This document shows, in pieces, positions 42,001 to 45,000 of a stretch of 64,000 bases of DNA. Each line of letters opens with the position of its first letter. The stretch's first letter is position 1. The DNA is taken from assembly GCF_057098645.1 (NCBI RefSeq), contig NZ_CM169472.1; one strand, 5' to 3'. A program made the position numbers.

Positions 42001-45000
42001 CAGTATCAGCGGTAGCGGTGATGTGACAAAACTTGGTACCGGGATCCTGACTCTTAACAACGATTCCGCGGCGTATCAGGGTACGACGGATATCGTGGGT
42101 GGTGAAATTGCTTTCGGTTCCGACTCTGCCATTAATATGGCAAGTCAGCACATTAATATCCATAACAGCGGTGTGATGTCGGGAAACGTCACCACTGCAG
42201 GTGATGTGAACGTTATGTCTGGGGGGACACTGCGTGTCGCTAAAACCACAATCGGCGGCAACCTGGAGAATGGCGGCACGGTTCAAATGAATAGCGAAGG
42301 GGGGAAACCGGGGAATGTACTGACCGTTAACGGTAACTATACCGGAAACAATGGCCTGATGACGTTCAACGCGACGCTGGGCGGCGATAATTCACCCACC
42401 GATAAGATGAACGTGAAAGGCGATACCCAAGGGAACACTCGCGTTCGGGTTGATAACATTGGCGGCGTCGGTGCGCAAACGGTCAACGGTATTGAACTCA
42501 TTGAGGTTGGCGGTAATTCTGCAGGTAATTTCGCGCTGACCACCGGAACTGTCGAAGCTGGGGCTTACGTCTACACGCAGGCTAAAGGGAAGGGGAATGA
42601 CGAGAAAAACTGGTATCTGACCAGTAAATGGGACGGCGTAACGCCAGCGGATACACCCGATCCCATCAATAATCCCCCTGTTGTGGATCCGGAAGGCCCA
42701 TCAGTTTATCGTCCGGAGGCCGGAAGCTATATCAGCAACATTGCCGCAGCCAACTCGCTGTTTAGCCATCGCTTACACGACCGTCTGGGTGAGCCGCAGT
42801 ATACAGATTCACGGCTTTCTCAGGGTTCGGCAAGCAGTATGTGGATGCGTCATGTCGGGGGACACGAACGTTTCAGGACCGGTGACGGCCAGCTAAATAC
42901 TCAGGCTAACCGCTATGTATTGCAGCTAGGCGGCGATTTGGCGCAGTGGAGTAGCAACGCGCAGGATCGCTGGCATCTTGGCGTGATGGCAGGCTACGCC
43001 AATCAGCACAGTAATACTCAGAGTAATCGTGTGGGTTATAAATCGGATGGGCGCATCAGCGGTTACAGCGCTGGGCTGTACGCGACCTGGTATCAGAACG
43101 ATTCGAATAAGACCGGCGCTTATGTTGACTGCTGGGCGCTGTATAACTGGTTTGATAACAGCGTCAGTTCCGATAACCGTTCTGCTGACGACTATGATTC
43201 TCGCGGTGTTACGGCCTCTGTTGAGGGTGGGTATACCTTTGAAGCGGGAACATTTAGAGGCAGCGAAGGGACGCTGAATACCTGGTACGTCCAGCCACAG
43301 GCGCAAATCACCTGGATGGGTGTGAAAGATTCTGACCATAACCGGAAAGACGGAACACGCATTGAAACGGAAGGCGACGGAAACGTGCAAACGCGACTTG
43401 GGGTGAAAACCTACCTGAACAGCCATCACCAGCGTGACGATGGTAAACAGCGTGAGTTCCAGCCTTACATTGAAGCGAACTGGATCAACAATAGCAAAGT
43501 CTACGCCGTGAAGATGAATGGTCAAACCGTAGGCCGTGAAGGTGCGCGTAATCTCGGTGAAGTACGTACCGGGGTTGAGGCGAAAGTAAATAACAACCTT
43601 AGCCTGTGGGGGAATGTCGGTATGAAACTAGGTGATAAAGGCTATAGCGATACTCAGGGCATGCTGGGAGTGAAATATAGCTGGTAAACCGTATAAGCCG
43701 CATGTCGACATGGCATGCGGCTTAATATTGCCAACTTCAAAAGGCTTTTAAAGCCTCCCTTTTATCCGCGATCGCGGATATCGCAGCGTTTATCCCGTAC
43801 AGCGGATAAGATGTGTTTCCAGATTGACTTTATCCTCACTAAAGGATAAAACTGATAATATCCCCTTAAGCGGATAAATTTGCTGTGGACGTATGACATG
43901 ATGAGCTTTCAGAAGATCTATAGCCCAATGCAATTAGCGAATGCAATGAAACTGGTTCGCCAGCAAAATGGCTGGACGCAGAGCGAGCTGGCGAAAAAAA
44001 TCGGCATTAAGCAGGCGACGATTTCCAATTTCGAAAACAACCCTGACAATACCACGCTCACGACATTTTTTAAGATTTTACAGTCACTTGAACTCTCAAT
44101 GACACTATGCGACACGAAAAATGCCTCGCCAGAATCAACAGAACAGCAAGATCTGGAGTGGTAATGCCTAAACTTGTCACTTGGATGAACAACCAGCGGG
44201 TAGGCGAGTTAACGAATACCCGAAGACGAAACCGTAACGCGTCCGATAATGGCATGGGAAAAGCTTACTGAAGCCAGACTTGAAGAAGTATTAACGGCTT
44301 ATAAAGCAGATATCCCGCTAGGCATGATTAGAGAAGAAAATGACTTTCGCATCTCGGTTGCTGGCGCACAGGAGAAGACAGCGCTGCTCAGAATAGGCAA
44401 TGACTGGTGCATTCCGAAAGGAATAACGCCGACGACGCACATCATTAAATTACCGATTGGGGAAATCAGGCTGCCCAATGCGACGCTCGATCTCAGCCAA
44501 AGCGTTGATAATGAGTATTACTGTCTGCTGCTGGCGAAAGAACTTGGGTTGAATGTTCCGGACGCAGAAATCATTAAAGCGGGAAATGTGCGTGCGTTAG
44601 CGGTCGAACGTTTTGACAGGCGTTGGAATACTACTAGATTCTCCCTTGGTTTCTGTTGGTGCGCATAATGTATATTATGTTAAATCGCATCTGAGTGATA
44701 CGAAGTGATTTTCCGGTAGTCGTTATTCGTTCAGGGTTCCAGAACTTAAGCCTCTCCTCTTTCATAATTGGCCTGTGCATGACGGATATAGGCTGGCTGG
44801 TATGCAGATTTGCCGTTTGCCGCATCTTCCCAGCGTTGAAGACTCAAGCTGGTAAACCGCGTGCAAATGAGCACGCCCTCTTTCCATCAACACTCCAGGC
44901 AGCTTGCGGGAATGAGTCCACTCCGGTATCAGAAATGGCTACGTCTCAATGAAGGCTACGTCTCAATGAAGTCAGGCGAACGATGCTGAATGAACATTAC

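What the first reader, a model, noticed from the sequence alone, without database searches (positions are those of the whole stretch)
44937..44970. 17-bp perfect tandem duplication inside the AraC-type (yneL-like) remnant
GGCTACGTCTCAATGAA occurs twice head-to-tail. With a single copy, the downstream AraC HTH frame continues upstream without a stop across the repeat; the duplication breaks that frame. Together with the adjacent hipA decay, this marks 44165-45132 as a locus under active erosion.
Basis: seen in the sequence. Interest (0 to 1): 0.35.

Follow-up and report, generated by a model that had tools for sequence, protein, structure and literature searches.

The report
Frameshifting 17-bp duplication in dead gene
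A perfect 17-base tandem duplication adds a frameshift to an already dead fragment of an AraC-type regulator gene (yneL) in E. coli O145:H28; it is an ordinary neutral mutation, useful at most as a lineage marker.

Summary
GGCTACGTCTCAATGAA occurs twice head-to-tail at 44937-44970, and it is the only perfect tandem repeat of 9 bp or more in the window. Removing one copy fuses the two short ORFs (42 and 49 aa) into one AraC-type HTH reading frame.

The window comes from the E. coli O145:H28 lineage. The duplication junction is found in 25 of 5,426 complete E. coli genomes, always with exactly two copies; 19 of the 25 are labelled O145 and none carries another serotype label. O157:H7, O55:H7, K-12 and the other genomes examined have one copy.

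The duplication did not kill the gene. In every E. coli examined the fragment lacks roughly the first 195 of about 304 codons, namely the AraC_N domain and the start. It has stops and indels at its 5' end, and its polymorphism pattern is neutral. It also carries other independent lesions: a 1-bp deletion in 2,915 genomes and a 13-bp deletion in strain UTME-3.

Next to it, hipA has lost 257 bp and 654 bp. UTME-3 shares both hipA deletions but has a single copy of the 17-mer.

RefSeq already annotates this pseudogene as frameshifted and incomplete. Interest is low.

The parts
44937..44953 (+). Copy 1 of the 17-bp unit GGCTACGTCTCAATGAA
   Evidence: It is absent as an extra copy from O157:H7, O55:H7, SCU-316, OZ121072, K-12-type genomes and UTME-3.
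44954..44970 (+). Copy 2 of the 17-bp unit. Base 44971 (G) extends the repeat by 1 nt, giving 1 nt of junction microhomology.
   Evidence: The junction-specific 48-nt query matches 25 of 5,426 genomes, all at 100% coverage, which means exactly two copies.
44846..45132 (+). AraC-type HTH remnant (yneL-type pseudogene), split by the duplication into frame 2 (44846-44956) and frame 1 (44956-45129, stop at 45130-45132)
   Evidence: tblastn with full-length relatives aligns their residues ~218-254 and ~249-305, with LRLNE encoded twice. The reconstructed single-copy product matches Pfam HTH_18 positions 1-76 of 80, E=1.3e-20. PGAP annotates the same coordinates in strain 95-3192 as 'frameshifted; incomplete; missing N-terminus', and that segment is colinear with the window.
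44782..44845 (+). Degenerate 5' edge of the remnant. It shows weak DNA similarity to codons ~198-217 of full-length homologues, with a +7 and a +5 indel and an in-frame stop.
   Evidence: DNA alignments with the D6 and L011 full-length or longer genes; translations. K-12-type genomes have an unrelated 111-nt segment in place of 44782-44905.
44861..44989 (+). 42-aa ORF fragment created by the frameshift (first half of the HTH domain plus an out-of-frame tail)
   Evidence: Weak HTH_18 match, E=0.0012, below the Pfam cut-off.
44983..45132 (+). 49-aa ORF fragment (second HTH motif)
   Evidence: HTH_18 positions 42-76, E=1.6e-9.
44165..44632 (+). hipA remnant. The start codon is retained. A 257-bp internal deletion has its junction at 44215-44216 (2-nt AA microhomology). 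A 654-bp deletion removes the 3' part of hipA and about 70 bp beyond it, with its junction at 44632|44633.
   Evidence: Alignment with the intact hipA of SCU-316 and k-mer offset mapping. The PGAP annotation reads 'missing N-terminus and C-terminus'.
43898..44164 (+). hipB, an intact antitoxin gene left without a functional toxin partner
   Evidence: ORF listing; annotation of the near-identical 95-3192 locus.
44679..44781 (.). Conserved non-coding block upstream of the remnant. Its left edge (about 44679, 'GTTAAAT') is where the gene content of different E. coli lineages diverges.
   Evidence: Alignment of PD23, P15-25, SCU-316 and OZ121072.
45566..46129 (+). Major subunit gene of the downstream chaperone-usher fimbrial operon (ydeQRST / F9 type), intact here
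   Evidence: This is context only and is not altered by the duplication.

Best explanation
The 17-bp repeat is a spontaneous small tandem duplication, most likely a replication slippage or misalignment error, with only 1 nt of junction homology. It arose once in the E. coli O145:H28 lineage. It lies inside a fragment of an AraC_N-type AraC-family regulator gene (the yneL pseudogene) that was already non-functional. It adds a +2 frameshift in the linker helix between the two HTH motifs and has no expected functional consequence. It persists because nothing selects against it, so it serves as a lineage marker. It is one of several independent neutral lesions accumulating in the hipA-yneL interval. 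Shown here: the duplication, the frame effect, its restriction to one lineage, the shared 5' truncation, the other independent lesions and the neutral polymorphism pattern. Inferred: the slippage mechanism, the single origin and the absence of a phenotype.
For: The duplication and its frame effect are shown. The junction-specific query hits 25 of 5,426 complete genomes, each with one place at 100% coverage; 19 are labelled O145/O145:H28/O145:NM and none carries another serotype label. A single copy with identical flanks is present in O157:H7, O55:H7 and SCU-316, and also in OZ121072 and K-12-type genomes. The remnant covers only residues ~218-305 of 304-321-aa relatives that carry an N-terminal AraC_N domain, and tblastn finds no trace of that domain in 43000-46000. 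The 5' boundary and the upstream stops are shared across lineages. There are independent lesions in the same remnant: a 1-bp deletion in 2,915 genomes, a 13-bp deletion in UTME-3, and replacement of the 5' 124 nt in K-12-type genomes. Eight remnant alleles show 13 polymorphic sites in 208 nt, 9 non-synonymous to 4 synonymous, which does not differ from the neutral expectation (p=0.3-0.4). UTME-3 shares both hipA deletions and an O145-type SNP but has a single copy. The site has no hairpin or other structure; the fold is weaker than 199 of 200 shuffles. PGAP already flags the locus as a frameshifted, incomplete pseudogene.
Against: Nothing contradicts it directly. Several weak points remain. 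The slippage mechanism is inferred from the product only. With 1 nt of microhomology, other routes such as template switching or repair synthesis are equally possible. UTME-3 could have reverted from two copies to one rather than never having had two. No phylogeny was built: UTME-3 differs from the window at 6 sites in 4.1 kb, against 4 in 7.6 kb for 95-3192. The neutrality test rests on only 13 sites. A published survey states that K-12 yneL gives regulated microarray signal (PMC9308461), so transcription of the remnant is not excluded.
Confidence: 0.9

Rival explanations
1. The duplication knocked out a functional short HTH-only AraC-like protein. This would be the ~84-89-aa open frame seen in O157:H7, SCU-316 and others, which might regulate the adjacent F9 fimbrial operon. 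On this reading O145:H28 has lost a regulator.
For: In single-copy genomes without the 1-bp deletion the frame is open for about 89 codons, with possible GTG/ATG starts. Some databases name 82-84-aa versions 'AraC family transcriptional regulator'. dN/dS against full-length homologues is about 0.1. The remnant sits about 430 bp upstream of the fimbrial major subunit gene.
Against: The open frame lacks helix 1 and the start of the first HTH motif, and also the whole AraC_N domain. PGAP treats it as partial. 2,915 genomes carry a frameshift in it, and well over a thousand complete genomes gave no match to the region. Polymorphism within E. coli is neutral, 9 non-synonymous to 4 synonymous. The low dN/dS against full-length genes is what divergence accumulated in the functional copies would produce.
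Confidence: 0.05
2. The repeat is a reversible copy-number switch, a contingency locus that toggles the reading frame by gain and loss of a 17-bp unit.
For: Tandem duplications can collapse precisely. UTME-3, which shares the lineage's hipA deletions, has one copy, and this could be a reversion.
Against: All 25 carriers have exactly two copies (100% coverage of a query anchored in both flanks), and no three-copy allele was seen. The frame it would toggle has no start or N-terminal domain. UTME-3 also carries its own 13-bp deletion, as expected of neutral decay.
Confidence: 0.02
3. The two copies are a target-site duplication left as a footprint by a transposable element that inserted here and was later excised.
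For: Head-to-tail identical copies are what a target-site duplication would look like after clean removal of an element. IS elements are active in this lineage, for example the IS3-family copy in the ydfJ region of strain 95-3192.
Against: No residual element sequence lies between the copies. None of the 3,415 records matching the site has it split into two places. From general knowledge, 17 bp is longer than the target duplications of the common E. coli IS families (2-14 bp), and IS loss by recombination between the duplicated target copies normally leaves one copy rather than two.
Confidence: 0.02
4. The duplication is a sequencing or assembly artefact.
For: None specific.
Against: The same junction is present in 25 complete genomes deposited by several groups, from strains isolated in the USA, Belgium, Japan and elsewhere.
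Confidence: 0.01

Closest known systems
E. coli K-12 yneL (b1506), the annotated AraC-family pseudogene between hipA and ydeT
   Same: It occupies the same chromosomal position and has the same C-terminal HTH coding sequence and the same 3' end and stop. It is described as a pseudogene with variable configurations among strains (PMC9308461).
   Different: The K-12 type has one copy of the 17-mer, a 1-bp deletion (GAAAGC-TAT) that shifts the frame further downstream, and an unrelated 111-nt segment in place of the 5' 124 nt of the remnant. In K-12 the fimbrial operon downstream is also truncated (ydeT partial), whereas it is complete here.
Full-length AraC_N (PF06719) + HTH regulators, about 304 aa, e.g. 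WP_001402381.1 in E. coli D6 and WP_088145624.1 in PD23 (the subfamily of YqhC, from my own knowledge)
   Same: The remnant is about 88-90% identical in DNA and protein to the last ~90 codons of these genes. The best full-length representatives in the 50%-clustered library have AraC_N followed by HTH_18.
   Different: The remnant lacks about 195 N-terminal codons and cannot be a ligand-responsive regulator. The full-length genes are separate loci. In D6 the gene lies next to intS at an unrelated position. In PD23 it lies immediately upstream of a remnant that is still present.
Small spontaneous tandem-duplication frameshifts, a classical class of replication-slippage mutations (established knowledge)
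   Same: It is a perfect head-to-tail copy of a short unique segment, relatives have a single copy, and it produces a frameshift.
   Different: It has only 1 nt of junction homology, and it lies in sequence that was already non-coding in effect, so it has no selectable consequence.

Membership tests
Functional AraC/XylS-family transcription factor | Complete ~100-aa DNA-binding domain with two HTH motifs in one reading frame | tested here: not met
   As it stands the domain is split into 42-aa and 49-aa ORFs in different frames. Only the in-silico single-copy version matches HTH_18 positions 1-76 of 80, and even that lacks helix 1 and the first PF00165 unit present in P0005 and P0122.
Functional AraC/XylS-family transcription factor | N-terminal sensing/dimerisation domain (AraC_N, PF06719, in the closest full-length relatives) and a start codon | tested here: not met
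   tblastn of P0122 and P0127 against 43000-46000 finds only residues ~218-305. There are stops upstream in frame. The PGAP annotation reads 'missing N-terminus'.
yneL-type pseudogene (orthologue of K-12 b1506) | Same position (hipA side upstream, ydeT/F9 fimbrial operon downstream) and a colinear 3' sequence | tested here: met
   Annotated regions and alignments with K-12-type, strain 4, EDL933 and SCU-316.
yneL-type pseudogene (orthologue of K-12 b1506) | No purifying selection; repeated independent disruption | tested here: met
   9 non-synonymous to 4 synonymous polymorphisms among 8 alleles, not different from neutral, although the sample is small. Independent lesions: a 1-bp deletion in 2,915 genomes, a 13-bp deletion, the 17-bp duplication and the 5' replacement.
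Simple tandem duplication mutation | Two perfect adjacent copies where close relatives have one, with nothing between the copies | tested here: met
Phase-variable (contingency) repeat | Copy number varies among closely related isolates and switches an otherwise intact gene or promoter | tested here: not met
   All 25 carriers have exactly two copies, and the affected frame is a truncated remnant. Within-culture variation could not be tested.
Transposable-element target-site duplication or footprint | Direct repeats flanking an element, or an occupied allele in some genome | tested here: not met
   There is no intervening sequence. The site is never split into two places in 3,415 matching records.

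The most novel reading that the evidence does not exclude
The single-copy remnant, open for about 89 codons in O157:H7-type genomes, might still be expressed as a mini HTH protein or a regulatory transcript that influences the adjacent F9 fimbrial operon. In that case the O145:H28-specific 17-bp duplication would be a lineage-defining loss, or a reversible switch, of that activity, contributing to differences in adhesin expression between the two EHEC lineages.
Probability: 0.03. Interest if true: 0.4.

Novelty: already known. Interest (0 to 1): 0.08.

Why it matters
It matters little biologically: the duplication is a secondary, apparently neutral lesion in a pseudogene that RefSeq already flags as frameshifted and incomplete. 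It has two practical uses. The 34-nt junction is a specific sequence marker for the O145:H28 lineage (25 of 5,426 complete genomes). The interval is also a compact example of parallel decay: hipA and yneL are broken in different ways in O145:H28, O157:H7 and K-12-type strains. Annotators and pan-genome pipelines should not read the 42-aa and 49-aa ORFs as genes.

Tried and rejected
1. My first attempt to count carriers used a 74-nt query spanning both copies. It failed because the tool joined two overlapping pieces from single-copy genomes into '100% coverage'. I replaced it with a 48-nt query in which no 28-mer seed exists unless the junction is present.

2. From the word-indexed protein search, where every close hit was 160 aa or shorter, I provisionally concluded that no full-length close homologue exists anywhere. 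That was wrong. Complete-genome searches later found 304-aa genes in D6 and PD23 and in 94 genomes overall. The conclusion now stands only for the orthologous position.

3. P0006, a 128-aa version, turned out to lie in an unrelated context in noisy assemblies of another enterobacterium. One source labels it Klebsiella pneumoniae; I did not verify the organism. The frame there continues upstream of the called start, so it did not help to date the truncation.

4. I tested whether the K-12-specific 111-nt segment is a diverged or inverted AraC piece. There is no similarity to the full-length genes or to the window, and its origin is unexplained.

5. I looked for a hairpin or inverted repeat that could have promoted the duplication and found none.

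6. An Rfam scan of the whole window found nothing at this locus.

7. I assumed the window was colinear with strain 95-3192 over 50 kb. That is false outside 3060-39175 and 40228-50000, so I quote annotation coordinates only for the verified segment.

Full report
**Observation.** The sequence GGCTACGTCTCAATGAA is present twice, head-to-tail, at 44937-44953 and 44954-44970. Tandem Repeats Finder reports period 17, 2.1 copies and 100% matches. The extra 0.1 copy is the G at 44971, so the junction has 1 nt of ambiguity. A direct scan for perfect tandem duplications with units of 8-24 bp finds nothing else of 9 bp or more in the 64-kb window. The chance expectation for a 17-bp unit is of the order of 4e-6.

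**Effect on the reading frame.** Upstream of the repeat, frame 2 reads ...VQMSTPSFHQHSRQLAGMSPLRYQKWLRLNE and then runs out of frame to a stop. Downstream, frame 1 reads (L)RLNEVRRTMLNEHYDVTTAAYAVGYESLSHFSREYLRMFGESPKRDITRLRKSVGQL*. Deleting one copy (17 = +2 mod 3) joins these into one frame. The joined 91-aa product matches Pfam HTH_18 over positions 1-76 of 80 (E=1.3e-20). The two actual ORFs (42 and 49 aa) match only half of the model each. tblastn with full-length relatives shows the motif LRLNE encoded twice, once in each frame, at 44956.

**Which genomes carry it.**
- The locus is the E. coli hipB-hipA-yneL-fimbrial (ydeT/F9-type) interval.
- A 48-nt query that can only seed a match if the copy-copy junction is present hits 25 of 5,426 complete E. 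coli genomes. Each hit is a single place at 100% coverage, which means exactly two copies.
- 19 of the 25 are labelled O145, O145:H28 or O145:NM. The other six carry no serotype in their names.
- O157:H7 (EDL933, Sakai and others), O55:H7, SCU-316, OZ121072, strain 4 and K-12-type genomes all have one copy.
- The window is therefore from the O145:H28 lineage. It is not identical to any listed genome: it has a private T at 44472 and structural differences from strain 95-3192 elsewhere.
- Presence in 25 independent assemblies rules out an artefact.

**The gene was already dead.** Even the single-copy form is only a fragment.
- The nearest full-length relatives are 304-321 aa, with an N-terminal AraC_N domain (PF06719) followed by the HTH domain.
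- The window retains homology only to their residues ~218-305. Weak, indel-ridden DNA similarity extends back to about residue 198.
- In-frame stops lie just upstream.
- PGAP annotates the fragment as 'incomplete; missing N-terminus' in O157:H7, SCU-316, OZ121072 and P15-25, and as 'frameshifted; incomplete' in O145 strains and K-12-type genomes.
- The 5' edge of the remnant, and about 100 nt of non-coding sequence before it, are shared by lineages whose upstream gene content differs completely. The truncation therefore predates their divergence.

**Further evidence of neutral decay.**
- 2,915 genomes carry a 1-bp deletion (GAAAGC-TAT) in the second HTH motif. At most 1,183 have the undeleted form, and that count includes hits on a full-length paralogue.
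- K-12-type genomes also have an unrelated 111-nt segment in place of the remnant's first 124 nt.
- Strain UTME-3 has a private 13-bp deletion.
- Well over a thousand complete genomes gave no match to the region.
- Across eight alleles there are 13 polymorphic sites in 208 nt, 9 non-synonymous and 4 synonymous. This is indistinguishable from the neutral expectation (p about 0.3-0.4), though the sample is small.
- The low dN/dS (about 0.1) against full-length homologues is what divergence accumulated in functional copies would give. It does not indicate selection on the fragment.

**Full-length homologues.** At this position none was found. Full-length 304-aa genes about 88-90% identical over the HTH region do occur in 94 of 5,426 genomes.
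- In strain D6 the gene is at an unrelated locus beside the prophage integrase gene intS.
- In strain PD23 it lies directly upstream of the remnant, which is still present, and next to IS elements.
- An earlier provisional conclusion from the word-indexed protein search, that no close full-length homologue exists anywhere, was wrong and is withdrawn.

**The neighbouring hipA.** Compared with the intact hipBA of SCU-316, the window's hipA has two deletions.
- A 257-bp internal deletion has its junction at 44215-44216, with 2-nt AA microhomology.
- A 654-bp deletion removes the 3' part of the gene and about 70 bp beyond it, with its junction at 44632|44633.
- hipB (43898-44164) is intact.

O157:H7 EDL933 lost hipB and the 5' end of hipA through a different deletion, while O55:H7 and some O157 strains keep the full pair. 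UTME-3 shares both O145-type hipA deletions and an O145-type SNP but has a single copy of the 17-mer. The simplest reading is that the hipA deletions came first and the duplication later. Reversion in UTME-3 cannot be excluded, because no phylogeny was built. Within the carrier group, RM12761 has additionally lost the 5' end of hipB and the fimbrial major-subunit gene. 'A locus under active erosion' is a fair description.

**Mechanism.** The product is a clean tandem copy with 1 nt of junction homology. There is no intervening sequence and no hairpin; the DNA fold is weaker than 199 of 200 shuffles. This is what replication slippage or misalignment produces, but that is an inference from the product. 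An IS footprint is unlikely, since no genome has the site occupied or split and 17 bp exceeds the usual target duplications (general knowledge). A contingency switch is also unlikely, since all carriers have exactly two copies and the frame concerned has no start.

**Comparison with what is known.** This is the O145:H28 allele of the known yneL pseudogene. It differs from the K-12 allele in which secondary lesions it carries. It is not a member of the functional AraC family, because two defining features (an intact two-HTH domain and an N-terminal domain with a start) were tested and are not met. RefSeq already marks it as a frameshifted partial pseudogene. A published survey notes yneL's pseudogene status and its variable configurations among strains (PMC9308461).

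**Verdict.** It is ordinary and already covered by existing annotation. Its only practical value is as a lineage-specific marker. Interest is low.

Noticed in passing
window 44165-44632: hipA is inactivated by two separate deletions (257 bp and 654 bp), while hipB stays intact as an orphan antitoxin gene. The sister lineage O157:H7 EDL933 lost hipB plus the 5' end of hipA through a different deletion, whereas O55:H7 and some O157 strains keep intact hipBA. This is parallel, independent loss of the toxin.
   Followed up: partly
window ~44679 (left edge of the conserved block); loci L015, L016, L006, L005: Upstream of a shared boundary ('GTTAAAT...') the gene content differs between E. coli lineages. 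It is hipBA plus an autotransporter in some, an aldo/keto reductase, quinol monooxygenase and carboxymuconolactone decarboxylase cluster in P15-25, and IS elements plus a full-length AraC gene in PD23. The remnant therefore marks the fixed edge of a variable region. It could be the displaced 3' end of an AraC gene at a recombination hot spot.
   Followed up: partly
L003 4886-4996 (K-12-type genomes), corresponding to window 44782-44905: K-12-type and strain 4 genomes have an unrelated 111-nt segment in place of the 124-nt 5' part of the remnant. It has no similarity to AraC genes or to anything in the window, and its origin is unknown.
   Followed up: partly
L014 2201-3115 (E. coli D6) and 93 other genomes: An intact 304-aa AraC_N+HTH regulator about 88-90% identical to the remnant over the HTH region is present in 94 of 5,426 complete genomes. 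In D6 it lies next to the prophage integrase gene intS and remnants of an alcohol dehydrogenase gene, which suggests a mobile or island-borne copy.
   Followed up: partly
window 39176-40227: The window has about 1,053 bp within the large autotransporter pseudogene (about 38510-43687) that strain 95-3192 lacks. Conversely, 95-3192 has an IS3-family element in ydfJ that the window lacks near 3060. Window 1-2757 does not match the corresponding 95-3192 sequence at all.
   Followed up: no
window 44472: A private T (A in 95-3192, UTME-3, RM12761, SCU-316 and EDL933) lies inside the hipA remnant.
   Followed up: yes
window 12105-12318 (+): This is the only Rfam match above gathering score in the window: STnc560, an Hfq-binding sRNA (280 bits). 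By offset it lies in the dgcZ-mgtS region.
   Followed up: no
L008 (O145:H28 RM12761) 1541-2918: The Belgian ice-cream outbreak strain RM12761 carries the 17-bp duplication and has also lost the 5' end of hipB and the fimbrial major-subunit gene. This is further decay within the carrier lineage.
   Followed up: partly
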